Source: Roseateles sp. (GTDB lineage: Bacteria > Pseudomonadota > Gammaproteobacteria > Burkholderiales > Burkholderiaceae_C). Taken from it: a stretch of 64,000 nt of DNA. The stretch lies in NCBI RefSeq assembly GCF_049240545.1, contig NZ_JBMLSK010000371.1:21608-85607 (forward strand), in the 5' to 3' direction. The number at the start of each line of letters is the position of its first letter. The first letter of the stretch is position 1. The notes under the pieces are model-generated. The model was not told the DNA's origin, ran no database searches, and saw nothing but the letters and a program-made list of their open reading frames with translations. The translations under genes were made by a program, and so were the position numbers. Below, piece by piece: positions 3,765 to 33,475 of the stretch.

Positions 3765-4340
3765 ATGCCTTCGTCGCGCCCTCTTCTTGCCGCCGGCCTC
3801 TTGAGCTTGTCATCAGCCTTCAGTTGGGCCGGCCCGGTCGCGCCCACGCCCATTACGCTCAATTTCAACGGCACCGACACCTGGTCGGGCAGCTTCACCG
3901 CGCTCAGCAGCGGCAGCAACAGCTTCGTCTTGGACCTGAGCCCTTTCGCCGGCATGCAGCTCGGTGGCTTGACGGTCTTGCTGTCCTCCAACTTCTTGAG
4001 CAATAGCGGCTATGACATCAGCAGCGCCAGCTTCGGTGGCCAGGCCTTCAAGCCCTTGCTTGATCAGACCTATCCAGGTCTTGGCGGCGCTGATCTGTGG
4101 CTGTTCAGCACCTCCTCATGGAGCCCCGCACCGCAGCTGATCCAAGTGACGGGGCAGTTGCTGGGCGGCACGGTGGGCTTCACCGGCTCGGTCAGCCTGA
4201 TCGCCCAGCCCGTGCCCGAGCCCGCCAGCTATGCGCTCTTGATGCTGGGTCTGGCCGGCATCGCTTGGGTGCGCCGACAACGTCAGCCGCAGAACTATGG
4301 GCGCTTGGTACACCTGCCTGAGCCCAAAGTCCTGCGCTGA
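3765..4340 (+). CDS. PEP-CTERM sorting-domain surface protein
   Basis: Signal peptide (LLAAGLLSLSSAFSWA), beta-rich S/G/T body, VPEPASYALLMLGLAGIAWVRRQR tail; SD GGAG before ATG. Confidence 0.9.
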   Translation: MPSSRPLLAAGLLSLSSAFSWAGPVAPTPITLNFNGTDTWSGSFTALSSGSNSFVLDLSPFAGMQLGGLTVLLSSNFLSNSGYDISSASFGGQAFKPLLDQTYPGLGGADLWLFSTSSWSPAPQLIQVTGQLLGGTVGFTGSVSLIAQPVPEPASYALLMLGLAGIAWVRRQRQPQNYGRLVHLPEPKVLR

Positions 4341-13642: not shown

Positions 13643-16045
13643 TCAAACCTCCAGGAGCTTGCTGCGCTGGGCCTGATTGGCTTGATCGATGCGGGCCAGC
13701 ACCGCCTTGAAACGGGGCAGTTCCCGCAAGCTTTGCAGCGCCGGGTCCTGCGCCAGCCACCAGCCTCGCCGCCAGCCCAGGCGAACCGCGTCCTCCAAGG
13801 CCGCCAGCGCCGCCTCGGGCTGGCCGCGCATCGCAGCAATGCGGGCGCGGTGATAGCCGATGGCGTGCCAGACATTGCCTTGCTTGGCATAACGCTCGAT
13901 GAAGCTGGAGGCCTGCTCAAGGAAGGGCTCGGCTTGCTCGCGGCGCTCGGTGGCGCAGTAAATGGCGGCCACATCGAGCCAGGCATGCTGGCCCAGAAAG
14001 GTGCTCCAGTCGTCGTACAAGGGCACGGGGTCGGCCAGAACCAGCCCAATCACAGAGCTCAAGGTCTTGTAGGCCTGCTCGGGCTGACCCAGCAAGAGGC
14101 GCAGCAAGGCAGTCTCGATGACCGCATCGCGCTCCTTGCTCTGCACCGGCAAGGCATCGACCGCCTTGCTCAGGGCCGGCCGGTCTTGCGCGCAGACCCA
14201 CAGCCGCGCCGCTGAGACCTGCGCCCAGACCGGCTGCGGGCTTTGCGCCTGGAACTGGGCGAAGGCCTGCCGGGCTTCTTCAATCATTCCCAGATCTAGG
14301 TAGATCCAGGCCAGTTGATCCCAAAAGTAGGCGTCTTTCGGTTTGATCATGAGGGCTTGGCGATAGCCCTGCACCGCTTCATCGAGCCGCCCCCTGGCAA
14401 AGCCAATGATGCCGAAACCCCGAGTGCCGTTGGCATGCTTGGGCGCCAGGCTGAGCGCGCGCCGGTAGGCCTGCTCGGCGAGTTCGTAGCGGCCTGCGTT
14501 GGTGGCGGCCCAGCCCGTTAAGTGCTGGATCTGCGGCGATAGGGGGCTCAGCTCAGCCGCTCGGCTGTAGTAGCCGAGCGCCCGGGCCGGCCAGCCGGCG
14601 CTGTTCTCGGTGCCCCCAGCCCAGAACAGCAGGGTGGCATCGTGCGGCGCCTTGGCCAATGAACGCTCATGCCAAACCCTGGCCTCGTCATGCTGGCCGC
14701 GATGGGACAGCAGACTGCCCTGCGCGCCCAGGGCCAGCGGCAGCTGCGGGTCCAATTGCAAGGCCCGGTCGACCAAGGGCTGGGCACGTGCATCCATGGC
14801 ACGAAAGCTCAGCCCGTTACCGTAGAAATATTCGCCAATCCAGGTCACGGCCTGGCCCACATAGGCCAAGGCGAAGCCGGGATCGGCGTCGATGGCGCGT
14901 TGGAAGTAGGCGCGCGCCTTCAAAATGCCCTCGATCTGAGCGTCGCGCTGATAGTGCAGACCCAGCAGGTAAAACTCATAGGCGTCGGCCAGGGGCACGG
15001 GTGTCGTGTTGGCCGGCAGCGGCGCCACGCCCAGGGCCTGCAAGGCGGCGTTGGCGGCGCTGACAGCCAGGCTGCCCAACGCAGCGGCAGGAGACTCCAG
15101 CACCTGCTGCCAGAGCACTTCGCTGTCCACCGCACGGTGCAGGCTGAGCTTGAGCTGCAGGCCCTGCTGCCAGCGCCGCAGCTCCCCCCAGAGCACATGG
15201 GTCACGGCCAACTGCTTGGCCTGCGGCGCCAGAGCCTGGGCAGTGCGGAATTTGAAAGAAGTGGCGCGGGCCGCCACCCGGATCTGCTGATGGCCGGACA
15301 GCGCGCCGATCACGCTTTCGGCCAGGCCGTCGGCCAACGGCTGCTCCAGCGCCTTGGGCGAGGTGTCATCAAAGGGCAGCACGGCCAGGGTGATATCACC
15401 CGCCGGCATGCGCGCAGCGCGCTGCCAGAGCCACCAGCCGCCCGAGCCCAACATGGCCGCTGCACCGGCTGCCGAACCGCCAAGCAGCAGGCGACGGCGG
15501 CGCGGCGTCGGCGAGGCCGCCAGCGCCAGCGGTGCAACATCGAGCCGCGGAGGCTCCGGTGCCGGCTCCGGGGCAGGCTCGGCCTGCTGTGGCGCTGATG
15601 CCGCGACAGACAAGACTTGGGTTGATGTGGCGGCGGGTGTTGCGGCGGGTGTTGCGACTCGCATGACCTCGGCCTCGGCCGACACCTCGCTGACCGCGGC
15701 CACCAGACGATAGCCCTTGCGCGGCACGGTGACGATGTAGCGCGGCTGGCTGGCCTCATCACCGAGCACGCTGCGCAGCTGCGAGATCGATTGGTACACC
15801 GAACTTGGGGTTACTACCAAGTCCGCCCAGACCTCGTCGAGCAGCTGATCCAGGGTCACCAGCTGTTGCGGCCGGCGCGCCAGTGCCATCAGCAAGCGCA
15901 TCTTGCGCGGTTCCAGCTTGACCACTTGCTCGCCCCGGCGCAGCTCGTCCAACACCGGATCGGCCTGCCATTCGCCGATCTGCACGGTCCGCGCGGCCAG
16001 GGGATCGGCGTCTGCGCCCGGCTTCAGTGACTCGCCCCCGTTCAT
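13643..16045 (-). CDS. CadC/ToxR-like membrane-anchored regulator: OmpR-type wHTH, TM, TolB-like domain, TPR repeats
   Basis: KLEPRKMRLLMALA..VTLDQLLDEVW..SVYQSISQLRSVLGD...YIVTVPRKGYRL; Pro/Ala linker; TM ending GGWWLW; LAVLPF...ADGLAESVIGALS; many TPRs. Start ATG 16045 preferred. Confidence 0.9.
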   Translation of the reverse strand: MNGGESLKPGADADPLAARTVQIGEWQADPVLDELRRGEQVVKLEPRKMRLLMALARRPQQLVTLDQLLDEVWADLVVTPSSVYQSISQLRSVLGDEASQPRYIVTVPRKGYRLVAAVSEVSAEAEVMRVATPAATPAATSTQVLSVAASAPQQAEPAPEPAPEPPRLDVAPLALAASPTPRRRRLLLGGSAAGAAAMLGSGGWWLWQRAARMPAGDITLAVLPFDDTSPKALEQPLADGLAESVIGALSGHQQIRVAARATSFKFRTAQALAPQAKQLAVTHVLWGELRRWQQGLQLKLSLHRAVDSEVLWQQVLESPAAALGSLAVSAANAALQALGVAPLPANTTPVPLADAYEFYLLGLHYQRDAQIEGILKARAYFQRAIDADPGFALAYVGQAVTWIGEYFYGNGLSFRAMDARAQPLVDRALQLDPQLPLALGAQGSLLSHRGQHDEARVWHERSLAKAPHDATLLFWAGGTENSAGWPARALGYYSRAAELSPLSPQIQHLTGWAATNAGRYELAEQAYRRALSLAPKHANGTRGFGIIGFARGRLDEAVQGYRQALMIKPKDAYFWDQLAWIYLDLGMIEEARQAFAQFQAQSPQPVWAQVSAARLWVCAQDRPALSKAVDALPVQSKERDAVIETALLRLLLGQPEQAYKTLSSVIGLVLADPVPLYDDWSTFLGQHAWLDVAAIYCATERREQAEPFLEQASSFIERYAKQGNVWHAIGYHRARIAAMRGQPEAALAALEDAVRLGWRRGWWLAQDPALQSLRELPRFKAVLARIDQANQAQRSKLLEV

Positions 16046-16175
16046 GAGAAATTCCCGTAAACCATTGATTTCATTGAAAAACAAAACCTTGAGAGAAGCG
16101 TAAGAGTTCCATCAGGACTCGCCGGGCGTGGCCGCCGACCATGGCACCACATTGACATCACGCCAGGGAGCCCCG

Positions 16176-17072
16176 ATGCGCAGCAAGCAGACTCAAACAC
16201 CGTTTCAGAGCCACATGCTGGACCCAGCCGGCACGCCGGATGATTGTGCGGGAGCCCGGCTCGCAGCCCGGGGGGATTGCCCCCCTAACTTGAAGTCTCA
16301 TGGCTTCAGCCCGTCTCAACCTGGGTCCGTCGCTGAGTTGCTTTGGCGTCGGTGGCCCAGCACCACCACGGCGCGTCAACCCTGGCGCGTGGCGGCCGTG
16401 GAGAAGCCCAAGCTGAGCCGTCTCGCCTTGCTGGCCGCCCTGTGCACGGCGGCCAACGCCCAGGCCGCGAATGTGACTTTCAACAGCGAGACCAGCTTCC
16501 TGGCAGCAGTAGGCGCGGTCAATGCTGAGACCTTCAACGCCTTCAGCACGGACACTAACAACGACCTGTTTGGCGTACCCAAAGCGCTCACTCTGAGCGG
16601 CTTCACGCTGAAGGGTGCCTGGAACGTGGATGCCCCAGACCCCGGCACAGACCCGCTGCGGACCATCGACGGCAGCACCCATGTGCTCATCGACTTGGCC
16701 TGGGGCGGCGGGACCGACCTGCGATTTGACGCACCCACCAAGGCCTTCGGCGCTTGGTTCCGCGGCGCGCCCACAGCCATCAAGGTGGATGGCGACAGCC
16801 TGGACGGCTTTGGCTCCTACCGCCACGTCGCTGAACTGCGCCCCGAGTTCGCCGCCCAAAGCGCACTGCAATTCATCGGCTTCACGTCGGACCAGACCTT
16901 CAACCGCCTCATCTTCCTTGGGAATGGCTGCTGCCGTTGGAACTTCGCCATCGACAACCTCAGCTACGCCGCCACGCTGGCACCCGTGCCCGAGCCCGAG
17001 AGCTGGGCGCTGATGGCGGCGGGCTTGTTGGGCTTGGGAGCCCGGGCATGGCGCAAAGCAGCGCAGGTCTGA
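16176..17072 (+). CDS. PEP-CTERM sorting-domain protein (beta-sandwich cargo); start uncertain (16176 ATG or 16398 GTG)
   Basis: Signal h-region LSRLALLAALCTAANAQA; tail VPEPESWALMAAGLLGLGARAWRK; SD GGGAG before ATG 16176. Confidence 0.85.
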   Translation: MRSKQTQTPFQSHMLDPAGTPDDCAGARLAARGDCPPNLKSHGFSPSQPGSVAELLWRRWPSTTTARQPWRVAAVEKPKLSRLALLAALCTAANAQAANVTFNSETSFLAAVGAVNAETFNAFSTDTNNDLFGVPKALTLSGFTLKGAWNVDAPDPGTDPLRTIDGSTHVLIDLAWGGGTDLRFDAPTKAFGAWFRGAPTAIKVDGDSLDGFGSYRHVAELRPEFAAQSALQFIGFTSDQTFNRLIFLGNGCCRWNFAIDNLSYAATLAPVPEPESWALMAAGLLGLGARAWRKAAQV

Positions 17073-18552
17073 GGTCTGGGGCTGCGACGCCCGTCCACGC
17101 CCTCATCCGCTGACCCACACGCCTTTTCCTTTTTCTCTCTCTCACTCTTTCACTCAAGGAGTCCCTCATGTCCCTCACCACCCTGATTGCCCGCGCATCC
17201 AGCGCCTTGCTGCTGCTGGCGCTGGCATGGCCTGCCCAGGCCAACAAATTCTTCGTTCAGTTCGACGACATCAAGGGCAGTTCAACCGACCAGGAGCATC
17301 GTTCCTGGACCGAGATCGCATCCTTCGCCTGGGGCCTGAGCAGCGACGGCGCCAGCAAGACAACAGCGATGGACTTCAGCTGGGAACAACTGATGGACAG
17401 CTCCACCGTGCCCCTGCTGCTGGCCGGCGCCAGAAAGCAAGTGCTCAATCCGGTGACCTTCGAGGTCGAGAACAACGCCGGTCAGCAGTTCTTCCAGATG
17501 ATCTTCAGCAATGCCATCGTGAACGGCATGACGGTGGACAGCAACGGCAATGACATCAATGCCGCAGGCAGCTTCAACTTCAGCAAGGTCGTCCTGAACT
17601 ACCGCCCGATTGAAGCCGACGGCAAGCCGGGCAAGGTACTCACCGCCTCGCTGAATTTCAGCACCAATGTGTTCACCGGCGACGCCCTGGCCTTCAACGG
17701 CCTCTTCTTGGCCGGCGGCCAAGTGAGCATCGATGGCGGACTGCCGATCACGAACCCTGTGCCGGAACCCGCAAGCTGGGCGCTGATGGCTGCGGGCCTG
17801 CTGGGCCTGGGCTGGTGGACTCGGCGACGGGCGGGTTGCATCGCAGCTCATGCAGGGCTGTGTGTGAACGCGGCCCGGCCCTTGACAACGAACACCTCTC
17901 AGGAAGCCCGATGAACTCCAACAAACTTCGACATACCGCTCTCGCATTCGCCCTGGCGCTGGCCCTGGCACCCGCCCACGCCGTGGCGACCATCGATGTA
18001 CCCGAGGCGGCCATCGAGTCCATCTTCGCCAATACAGGCCTGTCCATTGACCTGCGTCTTTCGGCGGGCCGCAGCCTGGTGAATGCCAGTTTGCTAGACC
18101 TGAATCGCAACGAGTTCTTCTCGCTGCGTTCGACGCTGGGCTTGGCCGCTGCCAATCCCAGCGTGGCCCTGGTGTTCGTGGACACCCTGAACTTCACTGA
18201 TTTCAGCGCCAACCAGGATGCTGTTGCCGGGGTCGGCTTGGGCGCGACGGCCATCGAAGCCGCGGCCATGGCGAGGCTGTTTGGCGCACACGTCACCGCG
18301 CAGAGCCTGGGCTACAACATGGGTCTGACCACGGTGGCGGGTTCGAACGGCAACCTAATGAACCCGACCTACCTGGACATCGCCAACAACCCGGCGGGCC
18401 TCACCCAGGTGCAAATCCAGAAGATCCTGCTCAGCCCACTGCTGCAGACCGATACGAACGGCCAGCGCTTCATCGACATTCTGCCGGTCTATGTGACGGC
18501 CACGGCTGCGGTGCCCGAGCCCGAGAGCTGGGCGCTGATGGCTGCGGGCCTG
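16986..18552 (+). repeat. Near-identical DNA copies of the PEP-CTERM tail in three adjacent genes
   Basis: 32-nt identity GTGCCCGAGCCCGAGAGCTGGGCGCTGATGGC at 16986-17017 and 18511-18542; 27-nt identity AGCTGGGCGCTGATGGCTGCGGGCCTG at 17774-17800 and 18526-18552. Confidence 0.9.
17168..17914 (+). CDS. Hcp (T6SS tube protein)-like domain with Sec signal peptide and PEP-CTERM anchor
   Basis: FVQFDDIKGSSTDQEHRSWTEIASFAWGL, DFSWEQLMDSSTVPLL, FNFSKVVLNYRPIEADGK parallel Hcp1 motifs; N-terminal LLLLALAWPAQA; tail VPEPASWALMAAGLLGLGWWTRRR; SD AAGGAG. Confidence 0.8.
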   Translation: MSLTTLIARASSALLLLALAWPAQANKFFVQFDDIKGSSTDQEHRSWTEIASFAWGLSSDGASKTTAMDFSWEQLMDSSTVPLLLAGARKQVLNPVTFEVENNAGQQFFQMIFSNAIVNGMTVDSNGNDINAAGSFNFSKVVLNYRPIEADGKPGKVLTASLNFSTNVFTGDALAFNGLFLAGGQVSIDGGLPITNPVPEPASWALMAAGLLGLGWWTRRRAGCIAAHAGLCVNAARPLTTNTSQEAR

Positions 18553-18609
18553 ATAGGTCTGGGTGCGCTGCAGCGCCGTCGCCTTCGCAACTCACAGGCC
18601 GGCGCCTAA
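17911..18609 (+). CDS. PEP-CTERM protein with degenerate metzincin-like domain
   Basis: ATGA overlap with the previous stop; signal ALAFALALALAPAHA; AQSLGYNMGLTT...NLMNP; tail VPEPESWALMAAGLIGLGALQRRR. Confidence 0.82.
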   Translation: MNSNKLRHTALAFALALALAPAHAVATIDVPEAAIESIFANTGLSIDLRLSAGRSLVNASLLDLNRNEFFSLRSTLGLAAANPSVALVFVDTLNFTDFSANQDAVAGVGLGATAIEAAAMARLFGAHVTAQSLGYNMGLTTVAGSNGNLMNPTYLDIANNPAGLTQVQIQKILLSPLLQTDTNGQRFIDILPVYVTATAAVPEPESWALMAAGLIGLGALQRRRLRNSQAGA

Positions 18610-18659: not shown

Positions 18660-21422
18660 ATGAGCACCCCCTTCAACACCTCGCGCACTGCCCCGGAGCG
18701 CCTGCGCCTGAACACCCTCGCCCTGGCCTGCCTGCTGCTGTCCGGCCCCGCCGCGCTGGCCGCACCCGGCGGCCGCACCACCATCGTCGTCAGCACGGGC
18801 GACAGCCTCAGCGGCTTGGAGGCAGGCACCACAATCAGCCAGGTGCAGGGGCCTCTCTCCTTGGGCGAGGCCGGGGATCTCGGCTTCATGAGCTTACTGG
18901 CCGGCAAGTCGGTCACCAAGGGCAACGATGCCGCCTACTGGCAGGGCACGACGCTGGCCGCGCGGGAAGGCGCGGCCGTCAATGGGCTGGCCAAGGGCCA
19001 GACGCTGTTCGGCTTCAACCCATTGGGTGACGGTAGCTTCATGGGCTTCATCACCGGGCCGGGCACCGTCTCGGGCAACGAGGTGGGTCTGTGGTCCGGC
19101 GGACAGTTGCTGGCACGGACCGGCACCCTGATCAGCAAAGACCTGGCCGGCCGCGCCGTAAACGGCCAGTTGACACGCATCGACAACACCTGGCGCAGCC
19201 GCAGCGGTGCGCTGCTGTACAGCGCACCGCTGCAAAGCAGCAGCACCCCGTCCGACCCGGCCCGCCACAGCCTGTGGCGCGACGGCAGCCTGCTCCGGCT
19301 CAGCGGCGACGCAGCCCCGGGGCTGGCGGGTAGCTTCACCGAGTTCCTCCAAGCCGACAGCAATGCCACTGGAGCGCTGGCCTTCGTCGCCAACCACAAC
19401 GACACCAGCCAGCGCTTCACCGGCGCCACGTCGGGCCTAGTGGTGCAGCAGGGCGTATGGCGCGGCCAGACGCTGCTGGCACGCTCGGGCGGCAGCGCGG
19501 CCGGCACGGGGCAGAGGTTCATCAATTTCAGCCAGGTGATGCTGGCCGACAACGGCCAAGTGGCCTACAGCGCGCGGGTGACGCCACAAGACTTCAACCA
19601 AAGCGAGCTGTCGATCTGGCGGGACAACGCCCTGGTGGCGCTGTCGGGGAGCTTCATCAGCGTGGCGGGACAGAACTTCAGGCTGGGCGACCCCGGCCTG
19701 CACGGCATTGCCCGCGACGGCGCGGTTGTCTATGAAGGCCGACTGATCGGCAACAGCGAAACACTGGACGCCCTGTGGCGCGACCAGGTCGTGCTGGCCC
19801 ACACCGGCCAAGCCAGCAGCGCAGACGGCCTGCAAAACCTGGCGCTGGGCGGCCTGAGCTTCCGCACACTGGCCAAGGGCGGGCAGGTATTGATGCAGAC
19901 ACAGCTGGTGGGCGCAGGCGTGACCACCAGCAATGACCACGCACTCGTGCTGACCGATGGCATCGAGCAGGTGCTGGTGGCCCGCACCGGCGACGCGGTG
20001 GGCAGCAGCGACGTGGTGCTGCGTCTGGGGGCTGCCACCGTTAACGACAAGGGCCAGGTGGCCTACCAGGCTGATCTCACCAAGGGCAAGGAGAACGCCT
20101 CCATCTTCACGCCAACGCTGCGCTGGCGCGGCAGCGGCAGCAGTGGCAGCTGGAGCGACACGGCGAACTGGACGCTCGGCCTCAACCCGGCCGACGTACA
20201 CGACGTAGTGCTGGACGCCAACAGCCGTCTCACCGTGACTGGCCCGACCGGCACGGTGAGCGTGAAGACGCTGCAGCTGGGCGCCGGCGGCGGCACCGGC
20301 CTGACCACGCTGACCATGTCCGGCGGGCGCATCAACGCCGACAGCGTGCGTGTCGGCGCGCTGGGCGTGCTCAGCGGCCACGGCAGCTTCGACGGCTTCG
20401 TGCACAACCAAGGTGTGCTGCAGGTGGAGCATCTGCAGATCACGGGCGGACTGGAGAACGCGGGCAGCGTGCGGGCGTCCACCGGCTTCGGCAGCCGGCT
20501 GGAGGCCAACCTCAACAACAGCAGCACCGGGCGCGTGCGCGTGGGCAGCGGCGAGCTGTTGCAGCTGATCGGTAAGGCGCATCAGAACGCTGGCGTTGTG
20601 GAGGTCAACGGCGGCCGGCTGGAAACCACGGGTGACCTGGCCAACGCCCGGGGTGGCATCGTCGATCTGAAGAACGCCACTGCGGTGGCCGACGGCGCCT
20701 GGCGCAACGACATCGGCGGCCGGCTGTTGATGAACGACGCTCGGCTGAGCACCAGCAGCGGCCTGGCCAACGCCGGCCAGGTGCTGATCACGTCGGGCAG
20801 CAGCGAGTTCTTCGGTGCGGTGACGAACCAAAAGGCCGGCCAGATCCTGCTTTCCGGCCAAGGTACGACCACCTTCTACGACACCGTGGACCTGCAGGCA
20901 AACAGCGAGCTGCGCACCTCGGCCGGCGCCACCGCCGTGTTCTTCGGCGCGGTGGCGCAGCGCAGCGGCGCCTTGCTCACGGGCACGGGCCACAAGTACT
21001 TCGAAGGTGGCTTCAGCGTCGGCAACTCGCCCGGCCTGGGAGAGGATGCAGGCAACGTCAGCTTCGGTCTGGGCAATGTCTACCTGGCCGAGCTCGGCGG
21101 CACCGAGCTGGGAAGCAGTTATGACCATTACCGCGTGGCCGGCACACTGACCCTGGGAGGCACGCTCAAGCTCACCTCCTTCGCCGGCTTCAGCGGCCAG
21201 GCCGGGCAGAGCTTCGACCTGTTCGACTGGGGCACGCTGCAAGGCGAGTTCAGCAGCATCGACAGCAGCGGCTTGCTGCTGGCCGAGGGTGCGCAGTTGG
21301 ATCTGTCGCGGCTGTACATCGATGGTGTGATCGGCGTGACGGCCGTGCCCGAGCCGCAGCAATGGGCCTTGTTGCTGAGCGGGCTGGGGCTATTGGCTTG
21401 GCGGCGACGCCCGGCGCGGTGA
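18660..21422 (+). CDS. Large PEP-CTERM surface protein: repeat (propeller-like) N-half plus autotransporter-passenger-like beta-helix C-half
   Basis: Signal peptide; 7 repeats of the xLWRDxxLLARxG type with N-x-x-G-x-x-A-F/Y motifs; G/N-rich beta-helix; GNSPG, GGTLKL, QSFDLFDW; tail VPEPQQWALLLSGLGLLAWRRR. Confidence 0.88.
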   Translation: MSTPFNTSRTAPERLRLNTLALACLLLSGPAALAAPGGRTTIVVSTGDSLSGLEAGTTISQVQGPLSLGEAGDLGFMSLLAGKSVTKGNDAAYWQGTTLAAREGAAVNGLAKGQTLFGFNPLGDGSFMGFITGPGTVSGNEVGLWSGGQLLARTGTLISKDLAGRAVNGQLTRIDNTWRSRSGALLYSAPLQSSSTPSDPARHSLWRDGSLLRLSGDAAPGLAGSFTEFLQADSNATGALAFVANHNDTSQRFTGATSGLVVQQGVWRGQTLLARSGGSAAGTGQRFINFSQVMLADNGQVAYSARVTPQDFNQSELSIWRDNALVALSGSFISVAGQNFRLGDPGLHGIARDGAVVYEGRLIGNSETLDALWRDQVVLAHTGQASSADGLQNLALGGLSFRTLAKGGQVLMQTQLVGAGVTTSNDHALVLTDGIEQVLVARTGDAVGSSDVVLRLGAATVNDKGQVAYQADLTKGKENASIFTPTLRWRGSGSSGSWSDTANWTLGLNPADVHDVVLDANSRLTVTGPTGTVSVKTLQLGAGGGTGLTTLTMSGGRINADSVRVGALGVLSGHGSFDGFVHNQGVLQVEHLQITGGLENAGSVRASTGFGSRLEANLNNSSTGRVRVGSGELLQLIGKAHQNAGVVEVNGGRLETTGDLANARGGIVDLKNATAVADGAWRNDIGGRLLMNDARLSTSSGLANAGQVLITSGSSEFFGAVTNQKAGQILLSGQGTTTFYDTVDLQANSELRTSAGATAVFFGAVAQRSGALLTGTGHKYFEGGFSVGNSPGLGEDAGNVSFGLGNVYLAELGGTELGSSYDHYRVAGTLTLGGTLKLTSFAGFSGQAGQSFDLFDWGTLQGEFSSIDSSGLLLAEGAQLDLSRLYIDGVIGVTAVPEPQQWALLLSGLGLLAWRRRPAR

Positions 21423-27424: not shown

Positions 27425-30013
27425 TCAATAGCCGAAAGAGTAGCCCAGGTAGTACTGACGGCCGACCGCGCTCATCGAGTTCGGGAAACCAGCATTTTGG
27501 TCGTTGTCGGTCTCGCCCGGCATGGCGTCGAAGGCGTTCTTGACACCGAAGGTCAGCTTGCTGTTCTTGAAGCCCAGGCCTTTGTAGCCCAGTTGCAAGT
27601 CCACGGTGTTGAAGCCCTTGACCTTCTTGGTCGTGGAAGTCACGTCGGCCGGCTCGTTCGCGTCCTTGAAACCGTCCATATAGCGGTCCGACACCGAAGC
27701 CATCCAGGGGCCGAAGTCCCAGTTGACGGTCACGTTGTTGACGTACTTGGGCTTGTCCATCAGACCCACATAGTCCTTCAGCGGCTCGCCAGGGGCGCGG
27801 GCTTGACGGAAGTGCAGGTTGTAGCTGAACTGGTTTTCCAGGGCGAAACGGCCCACGGCGGTAGACAGGCGGTAGCTCAGACCAAACTCCAGGCCTTGCG
27901 CTTCAATCTTGGCCACGTTCAGGATCGGCAAGTCCGCGCCGACCAGATTGCCCACCTTGGAACCTGCGCCAGGAGCGGCACGGGTGACCCAGTCCTTGCC
28001 CAGCTTGCCGCCGATCATCTTGTCCGGGTTGTCCAAGATGTACTGCAGGCTGCGGCCGATCGCGTCGGTCTTGTTGATGGCGTACCAGTCGGCCGACACC
28101 ACCAGATCGCGGTTGACTTCGAACACCGCGCCCAAGGCGAAGTTCTTCGAATGCTCAGGCTTCAGGTTCGGGTTGTTGTGGCGAACCACGTCGTACTGCG
28201 TCTGCACGCACTTGGACTTGTCGATGCCCTTGTCGGCGCAAACCAGATAGTCCTTGGCGAACTCGGCCGACTCTTCGTTGTCCTTCAGCAGGTCTTCGAA
28301 TGCCGGAGCACGGAAGCCTTCGGAGTAAGAACCACGGATCGCCAGGCTGCGCACCGGGGTCCACTTCATGGCCAGCTTAGGCGTCGTAACGGAACCGGCA
28401 TCGCTGTAACGGTCATGACGAACCGCCACTTGCGCGTCCAATGTCTTCAGCAGGGGCAGGCCCAACTCAGCATAGACGGCGTTCAGCTTCCGGCTGCCGT
28501 TGATGGCGGTGACTGGTGCGCCGGTCGCGCTCAGGCGGCCAGCAGCCGACAGTTCATCGGGCTGATAAGAGATCGACTCTTTGTTGTGCGAGTAACCCAC
28601 CGCACCTGCCGCCATGCCGCCGTCCAGCTTGAACAGCTCGCGGGTGGCCTTGGCGTTGAAGAACTGCACCTTGCCCTTGGAGATCGTGGTGCCGCTGACG
28701 TTGTACTTGGCGATGTCGGCGGCATTCGGAACCGTCCATGGCGAGAAGGTGCCTGCAGCGATGTCCTTCTTGGCGGTGGCGTAGTCAAAGAATCCGGTGG
28801 CCTTGTAGTCGGTCTTGCTTTCGCTGCTGCCGATCTCAAAAGTGAAATCGGTATCCATCGCGCGGGTCTCAAAGCCAGCGCCAATGCGGTTGAAGTCGGT
28901 CTGGGGAATCCAGCGACGCACGCCGTTTTGGTCATAGCGGATGCGGATCTTGTCCACCACCTCGCCGGCCGGCAGCTTGGTGCCGTTGGCCAAGGTGATG
29001 CCGCCCGCAGGCACGGTCACGTTGGAGAAGGTGCCGGGAGGGGCCGAGAAGAAGTTGGTGGTCTTGTTGGTGCTGACCAGGGCTTCCAGATATGCGCTGG
29101 ACTCGGCGCCAATCTTCTTGGTCAGCACGCCCAAGACACCGGTACGCTCGGTCGCCGGAAGCAGGTTGATGGCCTTGTTGAAGTAATAAGGGCAATAGGT
29201 GCCGGCGTTGTCGGTGACCAGGTCTTCCGAGCACTTGTTGACGGGCATGGTGGTGCCGCCGGTGCTGGCGGAAATCACGTTGCCGGTGGGCGAGGCATCG
29301 TTGTACATGCCCGGGCCCTTGCGGAAGGTGATCTCGCGATCGCGGCGCAAAATGGGGTCACGCTTCAGGTGATCCAGCGTCACCAAGACGTTGTAGCCGT
29401 CCTTGTCGAAGTCACCAAAACCCAGAGCACCCGAGAAACGCTTTTCTTCGCCGTCGCCGCGCGAAGTCTTGCCGTAAATCACATTGCCTTCGATGCCTTG
29501 GAAATCGCGACGGGTCACGAAATTGACCACGCCGGCAATCGCGTCGCTGCCGTAGATGGCGCTGGCGCCGTCCTTCAGCACTTCAACGCGCTCAATGGCG
29601 GCCAAGGGGATGCTGCTCAGGTCATAGGCGCTGGCATTGGCCGAATTCTTGGCCATGCGGCGGCCATTGATCAGCACCAAGACATCATCGGCCGAGAACT
29701 GGCGGAAGCCCAGGGTGGAGCGGCCGGGCGCGCCGGTGGCATTGGCTTCATCGTTGTAGGAGCTGAAGCCAGGCAGCTTCAGGAACACTTCATTGGCCGT
29801 GGTGGCACCCGAGCGCTCGATGTCTTGCTTGCTGATGACCTGAACAACGGTGGCCTCTTCCGACTGCACGCGCTTGATGTTCGAGCCGGTGACAGTGACA
29901 CGCTCGATCTGCTGTGTCTGTCCGGTGGTTTGGGCCATTGCGCTGGCGCCCATGGCGCTCACCGCGAGGAATGCTGCAGCGCCAATGGCGCTGACTTTGT
30001 ACTGCTTCAACAT
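27425..30013 (-). CDS. TonB-dependent outer-membrane receptor
   Basis: Signal peptide, IERVTVTGS TonB box, IERVEVLKDGASAIYGSDAIAGVVNF plug, C-terminal GRQYYLGYSFGY. Confidence 0.96.
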   Translation of the reverse strand: MLKQYKVSAIGAAAFLAVSAMGASAMAQTTGQTQQIERVTVTGSNIKRVQSEEATVVQVISKQDIERSGATTANEVFLKLPGFSSYNDEANATGAPGRSTLGFRQFSADDVLVLINGRRMAKNSANASAYDLSSIPLAAIERVEVLKDGASAIYGSDAIAGVVNFVTRRDFQGIEGNVIYGKTSRGDGEEKRFSGALGFGDFDKDGYNVLVTLDHLKRDPILRRDREITFRKGPGMYNDASPTGNVISASTGGTTMPVNKCSEDLVTDNAGTYCPYYFNKAINLLPATERTGVLGVLTKKIGAESSAYLEALVSTNKTTNFFSAPPGTFSNVTVPAGGITLANGTKLPAGEVVDKIRIRYDQNGVRRWIPQTDFNRIGAGFETRAMDTDFTFEIGSSESKTDYKATGFFDYATAKKDIAAGTFSPWTVPNAADIAKYNVSGTTISKGKVQFFNAKATRELFKLDGGMAAGAVGYSHNKESISYQPDELSAAGRLSATGAPVTAINGSRKLNAVYAELGLPLLKTLDAQVAVRHDRYSDAGSVTTPKLAMKWTPVRSLAIRGSYSEGFRAPAFEDLLKDNEESAEFAKDYLVCADKGIDKSKCVQTQYDVVRHNNPNLKPEHSKNFALGAVFEVNRDLVVSADWYAINKTDAIGRSLQYILDNPDKMIGGKLGKDWVTRAAPGAGSKVGNLVGADLPILNVAKIEAQGLEFGLSYRLSTAVGRFALENQFSYNLHFRQARAPGEPLKDYVGLMDKPKYVNNVTVNWDFGPWMASVSDRYMDGFKDANEPADVTSTTKKVKGFNTVDLQLGYKGLGFKNSKLTFGVKNAFDAMPGETDNDQNAGFPNSMSAVGRQYYLGYSFGY

Positions 30014-30479: not shown

Positions 30480-33263
30480 TTAGAACTTGTAGCCAGCGCT
30501 CAGGTAGAACGTGCGACCCAGGGAGTCGGTGTAACGTGGGTCGTAGCCCACGTGGTGCGAACCACCTGTACGCAGCGACAGCGGAGGAGCCTTGTCCCAC
30601 AGGTTCTTGACGCCGAACTTGATGTTCAGAGCCTTGTTCCAGTCGTACTGAGTCTGCCAGTCGAAGGTGTAGTAAGCCGGCACTTGCAAAGTCACATTGG
30701 CAAGAATTGGCCGTTTCGCTGCAGCACTTGCGGCAACATCAATCACGTCGCTGCGCGGCATGTCGGTGTAGCCCGAGCGATAGTTCATCGACAAGGTGTT
30801 CTGGAAAGCGCCGGTCTGCATGCTGCTGGTCACGCGGAAGATGTTCCGGAACGACACCGCATTATTGATACCGAACTTGTCCAAGCTTGTTTCGAACTTA
30901 TCACGCGTTCCCGGACGGGTGTAGCTCGACTCGATCAGGTAAGTACCAGCAATCGAGTTGGTCCAACGTCCGAAATCGGTATTGAATCGAGTCGTAAAGT
31001 CCCAATCCACACCCGAGGTCTTCGATTGACCAATGTTGATGGAAGCCAGCTTGTAAGCGTAGTACTTCTTGCCGTCGCCTGGGTCTGTGAACGTGGTGAA
31101 CAGATCAGCATAGGTCTTTGGATCGCCAAACCCAAGGGCCTCGCTGACGCTGGTCACTTGGTCCTTCATCTCGATGTTCCAGTAGTCCATGCCGGCCGAG
31201 AAGGCAGCATTGGGCTCGAAACGCAGACCAAACGAGAACTGAGTCGACTTCTCAGGCTGCAGCAGTGCATTGCCTTCGCTCAAACGCTGGTACTGAGCAC
31301 GACCAGGCTTGCAGAACTCGGTGCCAGGGAAGGGGCAGGTGTAGGGATTGGAGGTCACGCCCGAGGGGGTCTGTGGCCGTGCAATCGCCAACATCGAAGG
31401 TGCCTTGAAGCCTGTTCCGTAAGAACCACGGAACATCAATTGACGCATCGGCTGATACTTGGCCGACAACTTGTAGGTTGTGGCGCTCAGGTCCTCACCC
31501 ACCGTGGCGCCGGACGCCTTGTTGGTGGTTGCGCTGATCGTGTCGTAACGGAAAGCACCCGACACTTCAAGCGCCTTCGTGATCGGGACGATCAACTCAG
31601 AGAAGGCACCCGCTGTCTTGCGCTCCAGATCGAAGGCAGGAATCGCGGCGAAGTTGAACAGGAAGGTCGAGACCTTGCCTGCATCGGTCGGAACCTGCTT
31701 GTAGTGGTAGTTGCGAACGTCGACACCAACGCCCAGCATTGCATCACCACCCGCGACCTTGAACACAGGGCCGGAAGCGCGCAGATCAGCACCGGTCAGT
31801 TCAGTGGACTCAGAACGCACCGAGCCATTGAAAATGCTGTCACGGATCTTGCCCATGGTCTCAGCAGACTGCCCACCGGCAAGCGCGAAAGGATTCAAGG
31901 CACCGGAGCTCAGCAGCGCATTGGTTTCGGTCCGCTTGGAGTAGCCATTGATGTACTGCTCATCCACCTCATTCTTGGAGTAGGTGAAGCCACCCGAGGC
32001 ACTCCACTCGCCGATATCAACTTCTGCGCCGGCGACAAAGTGGTTGGATTCCGTCAGGGTACGCGAAGTGCGGCCACCGAAGTCCATCATGCGATAGGTG
32101 GCGGTCACCGAGCTCACATTGGCCACCGGGATCGTACCCAGATAAGGCTGGATGAAGGTCGCAAATTGCGCTGAATTGGTTGCGATTGGGATGTTGACCG
32201 CATTCGGCGCAATGACAGCGGTCAAGTCGTACTTGGAGTACGCATAGTCCGCAAACAAGCGAGCCTTGGGAGTCAACATGAAGTTGACATTGGTAAAGAA
32301 GCTGTCACGCTTGGATTCGGGGAAGATTTCCAGCGTCGAGGCGAAGTCGAAGTAGCACTGCGCATCCTTGCCGTTGGCTAGCGTATTGGCCTGGATGTAC
32401 AGCTCATGCTTGGGAGCGCACTTGCCTGTCTTTTCGTACTCTGGGTTGAAGGCGGTGTACTGGCCGTCATAAGTTCCGCCCTTGGTATCCTTCAAAGCGA
32501 TGGATGCGTTGGCGGGTACGGCGTGAGGCGCGCCACGGTTGTAGAAGTACTCTTTGCCGCCATTTTCAAAGCGCACAAAAGCCGATTTGGCGAAATCACG
32601 ATCGGTCGCCAGCAGACGCTTTTGCTCATCATGGCGATAGGACAGCATGATGTTGAAGCGATCGGTATCGAGATTCCCGATACCCCAGACCGCGCTGGCG
32701 TTCCAGCTCTGGCCGCCACCCGAAGGCATGTCATAGCGGGCTTCCACATTGCCGCCTTGCAGATTGCGCTTCAAGATGAAGTTGACCACGCCGGCAATCG
32801 CGTCGGAACCATACAGCGCGGACGCGCCGTCCGTCACGATTTCAACACGCTCAATGGCGCTCATCGGAATGGAGTTCAAGTTCACCGCACTGCCTGAACC
32901 TGTCGGGGCAACCCGACGACCGTTCAACAGTGTCAATGTGTACTCTTCGCCGATGTCGTGGATCGAAGCCGAGGTGAAGCCGCCGGAGTTGGTACCCACC
33001 GCAGTTGTCGTCACCGAGAAGCCCTGCATCGCAGGCAGCTTCTGGATCAGTTCGCTCACGGAGGTCGCGCCGGTCTTGGCAATGTCTGCCGAAGTCAGCG
33101 TCTGAACAGGAATGGAGCCTTCGGCCGCAATGCGACGAATGCTCGAGCCCGTCACTTCGATACGTTCCAGCTGAGTCGTCTGGGCATGCGTCACCACAGA
33201 CATGGAACCTAGTGCAGCCAGGACTGCAATGCGCACTGCGCTGACTTTAGGTGTCTTCAACAT
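30480..33263 (-). CDS. TonB-dependent outer-membrane receptor (paralogue)
   Basis: MLKTPKVSAVRIAVLAALG signal, LERIEVTGS, IERVEIVTDGASALYGSDAIAGVVNF, C-terminal GRTFYLSAGYKF. Start ATG 33263. Confidence 0.96.
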   Translation of the reverse strand: MLKTPKVSAVRIAVLAALGSMSVVTHAQTTQLERIEVTGSSIRRIAAEGSIPVQTLTSADIAKTGATSVSELIQKLPAMQGFSVTTTAVGTNSGGFTSASIHDIGEEYTLTLLNGRRVAPTGSGSAVNLNSIPMSAIERVEIVTDGASALYGSDAIAGVVNFILKRNLQGGNVEARYDMPSGGGQSWNASAVWGIGNLDTDRFNIMLSYRHDEQKRLLATDRDFAKSAFVRFENGGKEYFYNRGAPHAVPANASIALKDTKGGTYDGQYTAFNPEYEKTGKCAPKHELYIQANTLANGKDAQCYFDFASTLEIFPESKRDSFFTNVNFMLTPKARLFADYAYSKYDLTAVIAPNAVNIPIATNSAQFATFIQPYLGTIPVANVSSVTATYRMMDFGGRTSRTLTESNHFVAGAEVDIGEWSASGGFTYSKNEVDEQYINGYSKRTETNALLSSGALNPFALAGGQSAETMGKIRDSIFNGSVRSESTELTGADLRASGPVFKVAGGDAMLGVGVDVRNYHYKQVPTDAGKVSTFLFNFAAIPAFDLERKTAGAFSELIVPITKALEVSGAFRYDTISATTNKASGATVGEDLSATTYKLSAKYQPMRQLMFRGSYGTGFKAPSMLAIARPQTPSGVTSNPYTCPFPGTEFCKPGRAQYQRLSEGNALLQPEKSTQFSFGLRFEPNAAFSAGMDYWNIEMKDQVTSVSEALGFGDPKTYADLFTTFTDPGDGKKYYAYKLASINIGQSKTSGVDWDFTTRFNTDFGRWTNSIAGTYLIESSYTRPGTRDKFETSLDKFGINNAVSFRNIFRVTSSMQTGAFQNTLSMNYRSGYTDMPRSDVIDVAASAAAKRPILANVTLQVPAYYTFDWQTQYDWNKALNIKFGVKNLWDKAPPLSLRTGGSHHVGYDPRYTDSLGRTFYLSAGYKF

Positions 33264-33475
33264 ATAAAAAACCTCGGGGTAGTGGGGTTCGTCCAAACCG
33301 CCGCCATCCAACGCTGCCTTTTTCAAACAACTAGGGATGGACTAGCTCCAATTTGTGACAAAACTTTACCTACCAGCTATGACTGTTGACATGGTGGCAT
33401 CCCCCCGTGACTGGGATGCAACACTCCCCCGAAATCATGGGGATGAACAAGCCAAGTACCGCAGACGACCTGCGC

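What the first reader, a model, noticed from the sequence alone, without database searches (positions are those of the whole stretch)
17168..17914. T6SS Hcp tube fold apparently repurposed as a Sec-exported, PEP-CTERM-anchored surface protein
Seen: a Sec-type signal peptide (LLLLALAWPAQA), then about 145 residues that align by eye along the length of Hcp1 (F-x-x-x-D-D-I-K-G-x-S-x-D-x-x-H; I-x-S-F-A-W-G; D-F-S-W-x-x-x-x-D-x-S-T-x-x-L; F-N-F-x-K-V-x-L-x-Y-x-P-x-x-A-D-G), then a VPEP-TM-RRR sorting tail. Established: Hcp is a leaderless cytoplasmic protein that forms hexameric rings, stacks into the T6SS/phage-tail-like tube and chaperones effectors; PEP-CTERM tails are cleaved by exosortase for surface display. 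No other T6SS gene lies in this window. Inference: the tail-tube fold has been domesticated into a surface ring, filament or effector-binding decoy that bypasses the T6SS.
Basis: partly seen in the sequence, partly recalled or inferred. Interest (0 to 1): 0.85.

Follow-up and report, generated by a model that had tools for sequence, protein, structure and literature searches.

The report
Exported Hcp-fold protein with exosortase tag
This gene encodes a true relative of the type VI secretion "tube" protein Hcp that carries an ordinary export signal and an exosortase sorting tag, sits in a genome with no type VI machine, and belongs to an unstudied family that databases mislabel as a weapon part.

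Summary
ORF 17168-17914 (+), 248 aa, reads signal peptide, then a full-length T6SS_HCP domain (Pfam 51.4 bits, E 1.7e-13), then a PEP-CTERM tail (28.3 bits). The AlphaFold model (pLDDT 86) superposes on P. aeruginosa Hcp1 (TM 0.88, rmsd 1.8 Å).

The 98.7%-complete genome has no TssC sheath gene and no other Hcp. It does have exosortases XrtA and XrtB and at least 51 PEP-CTERM ORFs.

The protein belongs to a well-supported clade (SH-aLRT 98-99) of Hcp-like proteins that carry a signal peptide and a C-terminal sorting tag. The clade has its own signature (DFSW[TS]QxxDxS) and a conserved post-domain strap. It is found mainly in Betaproteobacteria.

Among 27 carrier genomes, 24 have an exosortase and only 3 have TssC. 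Among carriers of canonical Hcp, 54 of 64 have TssC (p = 4e-11). All modules are under purifying selection.

So rerouting through Sec and exosortase, independent of T6SS, is well supported. Ring, filament or decoy function was not tested.

The architecture is not unseen. Databases call these proteins "T6SS tube protein Hcp", and one Hcp survey discarded them. No study of them was found.

In passing: related secreted proteins carry exactly six tandem Hcp domains.

The parts
17155..17160 (+). Shine-Dalgarno AAGGAG, 7 nt before the ATG
   Evidence: Read directly from the sequence. There is no other in-frame start upstream within the 266-aa open frame.
17168..17242 (+). Sec-type signal peptide, residues 1-25 (MSLTTLIARASSALLLLALAWPAQA, predicted cleavage AQA|NK)
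   Evidence: By inspection it has a basic n-region, a hydrophobic h-region and an AxA site. The model predicts a helix at residues 4-19. An equivalent leader is present in all 48 aligned relatives and in all 24 GTDB loci whose N-terminus lies within the locus; L035 is cut at the locus edge. dN/dS is 0.05 against the L004 orthologue. SignalP was not run.
17243..17662 (+). Hcp-like beta-barrel domain, residues 26-165
   Evidence: Pfam PF05638 gives 51.4 bits over the full profile. pLDDT exceeds 95 here. Foldseek finds 1y12 with target-normalised TM 0.88 and rmsd 1.8 Å, and the top 50 hits are all Hcp. It carries the family signature DFSWEQLMDSS. It has a 9-residue deletion in the Gly-rich hairpin loop relative to Hcp1.
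17663..17755 (+). Family-specific C-terminal strap and linker, residues 166-196 (FTGDALAFNGLFLAGGQVSIDGGLP...)
   Evidence: The motif FSGDxxVLxGLFxxGG is conserved across the anchored family and absent from canonical Hcp. It is modelled as strand-helix-strand with pLDDT about 95 up to residue 180. dN/dS is 0.17.
17756..17833 (+). PEP-CTERM sorting signal, residues 197-222 (VPEP, a hydrophobic helix, RRR)
   Evidence: PF07589 gives 28.3 bits and TIGR02595 gives 22 bits, both above cut-off. VPEP is invariant in the alignment. dN/dS is 0.09.
17834..17914 (+). Non-conserved 26-residue tail after the basic cluster, plus the stop codon; the stop overlaps the next gene's ATG (ATGA)
   Evidence: The tail differs in P0001 (96% identical) and P0002, which end 8-11 residues after RRR. 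The overlap was read from the sequence.
13643..16084 (-). Divergent CadC/ToxR-like winged-helix plus TPR regulator
   Evidence: Pfam finds Trans_reg_C and TPR domains. NCBIfam finds CadC N-terminal similarity. It is conserved next to the cassette in the relative L004.
16400..17072 (+). First PEP-CTERM gene of the cassette (likely GTG start at 16400)
   Evidence: PF07589 gives 25.3 bits. The start was inferred from the signal-peptide-like sequence.
17911..18609 (+). Third PEP-CTERM gene of the cassette
   Evidence: PF07589 gives 24.3 bits. NCBIfam gives only sub-threshold PEP-CTERM family hits.
18660..21422 (+). Fourth PEP-CTERM gene: DUF7453 plus NxxGxxAF repeats plus PEP-CTERM
   Evidence: PF24251 gives 137 bits, TIGR05002 gives 62.9 bits and PF07589 gives 23 bits. 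The orthologue in L004 is 46% identical.

Best explanation
The gene encodes a member of a distinct, apparently single-origin family of Hcp-fold proteins that has left the type VI secretion system.

Proposed route, in three steps:
1. The precursor is exported across the inner membrane by Sec. Signal peptidase I cuts after AQA25, leaving a mature N-terminus that matches the natural N-terminus of Hcp1. This is inferred from sequence and conservation.
2. The C-terminal VPEP-helix-RRR signal holds the protein in the inner membrane until one of the genome's exosortases (XrtA or XrtB) cleaves it and passes it on to the cell surface or exopolysaccharide matrix. This is inferred by homology with the PEP-CTERM/exosortase system.
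3. The roughly 170-residue mature protein is an Hcp beta-barrel plus a family-specific C-terminal strap. It then acts outside the cell, most likely as an oligomeric structural or adhesive component of the matrix or floc. This step is speculative; ring assembly is plausible but untested.

The protein is one of at least 51 PEP-CTERM cargoes in this genome. It sits in a four-gene PEP-CTERM cassette next to a CadC-like wHTH-TPR regulator.
For: Homology to Hcp:
- Pfam, 51.4 bits.
- The family profile against Hcp1 1y12, E 4.8e-38, covering residues 3-163.
- Foldseek, TM 0.88-0.93.

Sorting signals:
- PEP-CTERM scores above cut-off.
- Leader and tail are conserved across 48 relatives and 25 GTDB genomes.
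- dN/dS is 0.05 for the leader, 0.09 for the tail and 0.26 overall.

Independence from T6SS:
- This ORF is the only PF05638 hit in a 98.7%-complete genome.
- The genome has no TssC.
- TssC occurs in 3 of 27 carrier genomes, against 54 of 64 carriers of canonical Hcp (p = 4e-11) and 65 of 301 in the order-level background.

Machinery present:
- XrtA with EpsI (345.7 bits) and XrtB (354.5 bits).
- Exosortase occurs in 24 of 27 carriers, against 122 of 301 in the background (p = 8e-7).

Distinct clade:
- All 50 PEP-CTERM and 13 VPxPA-tailed proteins fall in one set with SH-aLRT 98-99, apart from canonical Hcp.

Synteny:
- The cassette and regulator are conserved in an 86%-identical relative.
Against:
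- The signal peptide was not scored with a dedicated predictor.
- The ORF runs 26 residues past the basic cluster, which is atypical for PEP-CTERM and could affect processing.
- The final location and chemistry of exosortase products are poorly established in general.
- No partner gene is conserved across the family, so function cannot be read from context.
- The window's sub-clade has a shortened Gly-rich hairpin loop. This is the region I recall being described as forming ring-to-ring contacts in assembled Hcp tubes (recalled, not checked here), so tube stacking may be lost.
Confidence: 0.75

Rival explanations
1. The protein stays in the cell envelope, either periplasmic or tethered to the inner membrane by the PEP-CTERM helix. 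There it would act, for example, as an Hcp-like chaperone or ring for other exported cargo. It would not be released to the surface.
For: Canonical Hcp rings are known to chaperone effectors in their lumen (established knowledge). The 26-residue extension after RRR might impair exosortase processing. The gene sits among three other PEP-CTERM cargo genes.
Against: The extension is not conserved, and relatives end 3-14 residues after the basic cluster. The PEP motif is invariant and under strong constraint. Most family members are solitary genes with no conserved neighbouring cargo.
Confidence: 0.12
2. It is a surface or matrix decoy. Displayed Hcp-like rings would sequester incoming T6SS effectors, or phage tail or receptor-binding proteins, from competitors.
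For: The Hcp fold is retained with high confidence. Carriers mostly lack their own T6SS, so a defensive use is conceivable.
Against: There is no direct evidence. No defence-island context was seen. The family-specific surface changes (W-x-Q motif, C-terminal strap) show no known link to effector binding.
Confidence: 0.06
3. It is an ordinary T6SS tube protein, either an orphan hcp or one with a mis-called start. The leader and tail would be annotation artefacts, or the gene would be a decaying relic.
For: Public pipelines name family members 'type VI secretion system tube protein Hcp'. 3 of 27 carriers do have TssC.
Against: - No in-frame start exists between Met1 and Met68, and a good RBS precedes Met1.
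- Leader and tail are conserved family-wide and under purifying selection.
- The genome has no TssC and no second Hcp.
- The score against the TIGR03344 TssD model is 18.4 bits, against a cut-off of 58.9.
Confidence: 0.03

Closest known systems
T6SS tube protein Hcp/TssD, Hcp1 type (P. aeruginosa PA0085, PDB 1y12; B. pseudomallei 4tv4; Edwardsiella EvpC 3eaa)
   Same: It shares the same beta-barrel fold with the extended hairpin over the full length (TM 0.88-0.93, rmsd 1.5-1.9 Å). Sequence homology is clear. The mature N-terminus coincides with the Hcp1 N-terminus.
   Different: - It has a Sec leader, a PEP-CTERM tail and a conserved 30-residue C-terminal strap.
- The motif W-[TS]-Q replaces F-T-K.
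- The Gly-rich loop is shorter.
- It occurs in genomes without a T6SS sheath.
- It scores below the TIGR03344 cut-off.
PEP-CTERM/exosortase cargo proteins (Haft et al. 2006, PMC1569441; floc-forming PepA of Zoogloea/Aquincola, NF033554, PMC9850573)
   Same: It has the same layout: signal peptide, cargo domain, then VPEP-TM-basic tail. The genome has XrtA and XrtB and dozens of such cargoes. It sits in a cluster of PEP-CTERM genes.
   Different: The cargo domain is an Hcp fold. No named NCBIfam PEP-CTERM family reaches its cut-off. No sigma-54 promoter was found nearby, unlike pepA. A 26-residue extension follows the basic cluster.
Other domesticated or extended Hcp homologues: the Salmonella regulator HilE (Hcp-like, PMC8192010) and Hcp with C-terminal toxin extensions (surveyed in PMC8262886)
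   Same: These are precedents for the Hcp fold being reused or extended.
   Different: HilE is a cytoplasmic regulator. Toxin-extended Hcps are still leaderless and T6SS-dependent. Here the export route itself has changed.
VPLPA-CTERM-type sorting signals (XrtD system, TIGR04152)
   Same: 13 members of the same Hcp-like clade carry VPxPA-WLLGSGL-RRK tails in place of PEP-CTERM.
   Different: The window's protein has the classical VPEP form, and its genome has XrtA and XrtB, not XrtD.

Membership tests
T6SS Hcp/TssD tube protein | Sequence and fold homology to Hcp (PF05638) | tested here: met
   PF05638 gives 51.4 bits over the full profile. Foldseek top hits are all Hcp, probability 1.0, target-normalised TM 0.88-0.93. 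phmmer against 1y12 gives E 2.9e-9.
T6SS Hcp/TssD tube protein | Scores as TssD with NCBI's curated model TIGR03344 | tested here: not met
   18.4 bits against a cut-off of 58.9.
T6SS Hcp/TssD tube protein | Leaderless cytoplasmic protein with no Sec signal | tested here: not met
   A 25-residue leader with an AxA site is present, with no alternative start. It is conserved family-wide and has dN/dS 0.05. This is a heuristic judgement; no SignalP was run.
T6SS Hcp/TssD tube protein | Co-occurs with T6SS core genes (sheath TssC) | tested here: not met
   The own genome has no TssC. 3 of 27 carriers have TssC, against 54 of 64 for canonical Hcp, p = 4e-11.
T6SS Hcp/TssD tube protein | Forms hexameric rings that stack into a tube | not testable with these tools
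   Only monomer prediction was available. Indirect hints exist. A member of the same clade has two tandem domains (P0108). Related secreted proteins have exactly six tandem domains, and one of these folds with pTM 0.65.
PEP-CTERM/exosortase cargo | C-terminal PEP motif, hydrophobic helix and basic cluster | tested here: met
   PF07589 gives 28.3 bits (cut-off 20.7) and TIGR02595 gives 22 bits (cut-off 16).
PEP-CTERM/exosortase cargo | The signal lies at the extreme C-terminus | tested here: inconclusive
   26 residues follow RRR in this ORF. Relatives have 3-14 residues, and this tail is not conserved.
PEP-CTERM/exosortase cargo | N-terminal signal peptide | tested here: met
   Judged by inspection and conservation. 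No dedicated predictor was available.
PEP-CTERM/exosortase cargo | Exosortase encoded in the same genome | tested here: met
   There are two PF09721 hits, typed as XrtA with EpsI (345.7 bits, cut-off 208) and XrtB (354.5 bits, cut-off 275). 24 of 27 carriers have an exosortase, against 122 of 301 in the background.
PEP-CTERM/exosortase cargo | Cleavage by exosortase and delivery to the surface or EPS | not testable with these tools
   This needs proteomics or genetics.
Named NCBIfam PEP-CTERM protein families (FxDxF, PepA, XDP1 and others) | Score above the family cut-off | tested here: not met
   The best hit is NF038126 at 33.1 bits (cut-off 50). All hits rest mainly on the tail.

The most novel reading that the evidence does not exclude
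The anchored Hcp-like proteins still assemble into hexameric rings, perhaps short tubes, but outside the cell. They would form a T6SS-independent ring scaffold in the exopolysaccharide or floc matrix. The related secreted proteins with exactly six tandem Hcp domains would be covalent single-chain versions of the same ring. Together these would be a previously unrecognised extracellular radiation of the phage-tail-tube fold.
Probability: 0.3. Interest if true: 0.8.

Novelty: new variant of a known kind. Interest (0 to 1): 0.6.

Why it matters
- The phage-tail/T6SS tube fold has been moved onto a different export route (Sec plus exosortase). It has diversified there in environmental Betaproteobacteria, many from genera known for floc or biofilm growth.
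- It adds a defined, foldable and probably oligomeric cargo to the poorly understood PEP-CTERM system. Such a cargo could serve as a tractable reporter for what exosortases actually do.
- It exposes a systematic annotation error. These proteins are named "T6SS tube protein Hcp" in genomes with no T6SS, which inflates T6SS surveys.
- Together with the six-domain single-chain relatives, it suggests that extracellular Hcp rings may be a wider, unstudied class.

Tried and rejected
- The search for related loci with the family alignments A1 and A2 failed because no conserved 7-10-column stretch was found.
- The search for related loci with the single protein found no close relative among GTDB species genomes.
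A tighter pattern then worked.
- The word-index homologue search with the profile recovered few members.
- I looked for conserved neighbours across 27 family loci. Only shadow ORFs and lineage-specific synteny turned up.
- I looked for a sigma-54 promoter like those of floc pepA genes. None lies near the cassette.
- The sigma-70 and terminator scans were uninformative.
- Rfam found nothing in the window.
- Literature searches for tandem or exported Hcp returned mostly noise, because "HCP" also means healthcare professional and hexagonal close packing. Searches for Hcp with exosortase or signal peptide gave no direct study.
- A mis-called start, an orphan T6SS Hcp and a pseudogene were considered and rejected; see the rival explanations.

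Full report
**The object.** ORF 17168-17914 (+) encodes 248 aa.
- AAGGAG lies 7 nt upstream of the ATG. No other in-frame start exists before Met68, so the N-terminal leader cannot be avoided by re-annotation.
- Pfam gives T6SS_HCP at E 1.7e-13, 51.4 bits (cut-off 23.5), residues 29-145, covering the whole 129-position profile. It gives PEP-CTERM at 28.3 bits (cut-off 20.7), residues 197-220.
- NCBIfam confirms the PEP-CTERM domain (TIGR02595, 22 bits against 16).
- NCBIfam places the protein in no named PEP-CTERM family, and it scores far below the curated TssD model (TIGR03344, 18.4 bits against 58.9).

**Fold.** I built an alignment of 48 relatives and used it for AlphaFold2.
- The model has mean pLDDT 86, with values above 95 across residues 30-180.
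- Foldseek against the PDB returns only Hcp proteins among the top 50 hits. These include P. aeruginosa Hcp1 1y12 (target-normalised TM 0.88, rmsd 1.8 Å) and 8yun, 4tv4 and 7fcf (TM 0.91-0.93).
- In sequence, the protein alone hits 1y12 at E 2.9e-9. The family profile hits it at E 4.8e-38 over Hcp1 residues 3-163.
- After the predicted AQA|NK cleavage, the mature N-terminus therefore coincides with the natural Hcp1 N-terminus. The additions are a leader in front and about 55 residues behind.
- Relative to Hcp1, the window's sub-clade lacks 9 residues in the Gly-rich hairpin loop.

**Genome context.**
- The window is ordinary chromosome. It carries purB, pyrF, argS, rpoN, lptA/B, mnmA, pntAB, two-component systems and two TonB receptors. 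No T6SS family was found.
- The gene is second in a row of four co-oriented PEP-CTERM genes, at about 16400-17072, 17168-17914, 17911-18609 and 18660-21422. They lie divergent from a CadC-like wHTH-TPR protein at 13643-16084.
- The stop codon overlaps the next gene's ATG.
- In the whole assembly (5.22 Mb, 98.7% complete) this ORF is the only PF05638 match, and there is no TssC/VipB.
- There are two exosortases, typed as XrtA fused to EpsI and XrtB.
- A regex count finds at least 51 PEP-CTERM-tailed ORFs.

**The family.** An exhaustive phmmer search with the domain gave 798 representatives at E ≤ 1e-3.
- Among the best 150 are about 50 proteins of 225-250 aa with leader, Hcp and PEP-CTERM.
- Thirteen have VPxPA-WLLGSGL-RRK tails instead.
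- About 30 have a leader but no tail.
- About 15 are leaderless proteins of canonical size.
- About 50 are multi-domain proteins.
- A maximum-likelihood tree of 171 domains puts every tailed protein in one set with SH-aLRT 99, apart from canonical Hcp of the same order. The set stays at 98 when further tandem proteins are added.
- The clade has its own signature, DFSW[TS]QxxDxS, where Hcp1 reads F-T-K at the corresponding positions. It also has a conserved post-domain strap, FSGDxxVLxGLFxxGG.
- An 86%-identical relative on a 55-kb contig keeps the same regulator and PEP-CTERM cassette.
- Across more distant members no neighbour is conserved.
- Against that orthologue, dN/dS is 0.26 overall. 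By module it is 0.05 in the leader, 0.36 in the Hcp domain, 0.17 in the strap and 0.09 in the PEP-CTERM tail. All modules are therefore constrained.

**Co-occurrence.**
- In 301 genomes of the same order, only two carry the full architecture: the window's own genome and G118.
- A degenerate DNA pattern for the family signature, scanned over one genome per GTDB species, gave 39 loci. Of these, 25 are true members.
- The true members come from Pelomonas/Roseateles, Methyloversatilis, Azonexus, Ferribacterium, Azospira, Rhodocyclaceae, Rubrivivax and Burkholderiales MAGs, plus one "delta proteobacterium" MAG.

| Group | TssC present | Exosortase present |
|---|---|---|
| Carriers of the tailed family (26 plus own genome) | 3/27 | 24/27 |
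| Order-level background | 65/301 | 122/301 |
| Carriers of canonical-type Hcp (my tally) | 54/64 | not counted |

- Fisher tests give p = 4e-11 for TssC (family against canonical Hcp carriers) and p = 8e-7 for exosortase (family against background).
- TssC in carriers does not differ from the background rate (p = 0.32).
- The three carriers without an exosortase hit have assemblies of 2.3, 3.1 and 4.5 Mb.
- The family therefore tracks the exosortase system and is independent of T6SS.

**Interpretation.** Two things are shown by computation: a true Hcp homologue carrying conserved Sec and PEP-CTERM signals, and independence from T6SS at the genome level. Three things are inferred: Sec export with SPase I cleavage, exosortase cleavage and delivery to the surface or EPS, and an extracellular structural role.

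Ring formation is untested. Three indirect hints exist:
- The protruding hairpin is modelled with high confidence.
- One member of the same clade, P0108, has a leader, two tandem Hcp domains and a PEP-CTERM tail.
- Neighbouring branches hold proteins with exactly six tandem Hcp domains.

The shortened Gly-rich loop and the extra C-terminal strap could equally mean that tube stacking has been lost.

**What is known.**
- Public pipelines name family members "type VI secretion system tube protein Hcp" (MCC7080794.1) or "Hcp family type VI secretion system effector" (WP_226495086.1, Ferribacterium limneticum).
- The only literature trace found is a Methods sentence in a large Hcp survey. It removed PF05638 genes that carry PF07589 before analysis (PMC8262886).
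- Searches combining Hcp with PEP-CTERM, exosortase or signal peptide found no study of these proteins.
- PEP-CTERM cargoes have been tied to floc formation in Aquincola and Zoogloea (PMC9850573) and to exosortase-dependent phenotypes in Nostoc (PMC12188702).
- A granular-sludge secretome study reports T6SS_HCP-domain proteins in its extracellular proteome data (bioRxiv 10.1101/2024.11.06.622250).
- Earlier notes of this scan record the same architecture in other genomes. These are leads, not evidence.

**Verdict.**
- The protein is a member of an uncharacterised, mis-annotated family, which I class as a new variant of known kinds (Hcp fold and PEP-CTERM cargo).
- Interest is moderate to high, at 0.6.

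**Side finding.**
- Of 54 multi-domain hits, 34 have exactly six tandem Hcp-like domains of about 150 aa joined by linkers of about 20 aa.
- Pfam confirms six PF05638 domains in each of six such proteins that were tested. Some also carry RTX repeats, Ig-like domains or the Planctomycete extracellular motif.
- P0014, at 909 aa, is nothing but six domains. It is a complete gene on a metagenome contig with no T6SS neighbours.
- P0014 folds with pLDDT 76.8 and pTM 0.65. That is high for six domains joined by low-confidence linkers and fits a fixed arrangement. The geometry could not be inspected.

Noticed in passing
off-window: proteins P0005-P0017, P0025, P0035, P0036, P0142 and others; locus L059:312-3041: Many secreted proteins carry exactly six tandem Hcp-like domains: 34 of 54 multi-domain hits. 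Some also have RTX repeats, Ig-like domains or the Planctomycete extracellular motif. P0014 (909 aa) is six domains only and folds with pTM 0.65. These may be single-chain pseudo-hexameric Hcp rings outside T6SS. No literature on them was found.
   Followed up: partly
off-window: P0042, P0043, P0048, P0050, P0057, P0081, P0091, P0093, P0098, P0102, P0109, P0123, P0146; locus L031: Members of the same Hcp-like clade carry VPxPA-WLLGSGL-RRK tails (VPLPA-CTERM-like) instead of PEP-CTERM. The sorting tag has therefore been swapped within the family.
   Followed up: partly
off-window: P0108 (428 aa): This protein has a signal peptide, two tandem Hcp-like domains and a PEP-CTERM tail. Both domains fall inside the anchored clade.
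   Followed up: partly
window 17911-17914: The stop codon of the Hcp-like gene overlaps the ATG of the next PEP-CTERM gene (ATGA), which suggests translational coupling. In the 86%-identical relative the two genes are 35 nt apart and the Hcp-like protein ends 8 residues after RRR. The window's 26-residue tail therefore looks like read-through into the former spacer.
   Followed up: partly
window 3765-4340 (+): This is a further PEP-CTERM protein (PF07589, 33.1 bits). It also continues about 20 residues past its basic cluster.
   Followed up: no
window 27425-30013 (-) and 30480-33326 (-): Two adjacent TonB-dependent receptor genes lie here. The region around the second, 30-34 kb, has 54-57% GC, against about 64% for the window.
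   Followed up: no
own genome: G000 C49:18522-20171 and C306:20461-21381: The genome encodes both XrtA (fused to EpsI) and XrtB. A regex count finds at least 51 ORFs with PEP-CTERM tails, which is a large repertoire.
   Followed up: partly
genomes G035, G090, G181, G223 and G265 (one genus) and G034: These genomes have strong Hcp-like matches but no TssC. Some matches lie inside open frames of 408-615 aa, and one (G034) includes a leader-like N-terminus. They may be further non-T6SS uses of the Hcp fold.
   Followed up: no
public records MCC7080794.1 and WP_226495086.1: Family members are named 'type VI secretion system tube protein Hcp' or 'Hcp family T6SS effector', although most carrier genomes lack a T6SS sheath gene. 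This is a systematic annotation problem.
   Followed up: yes
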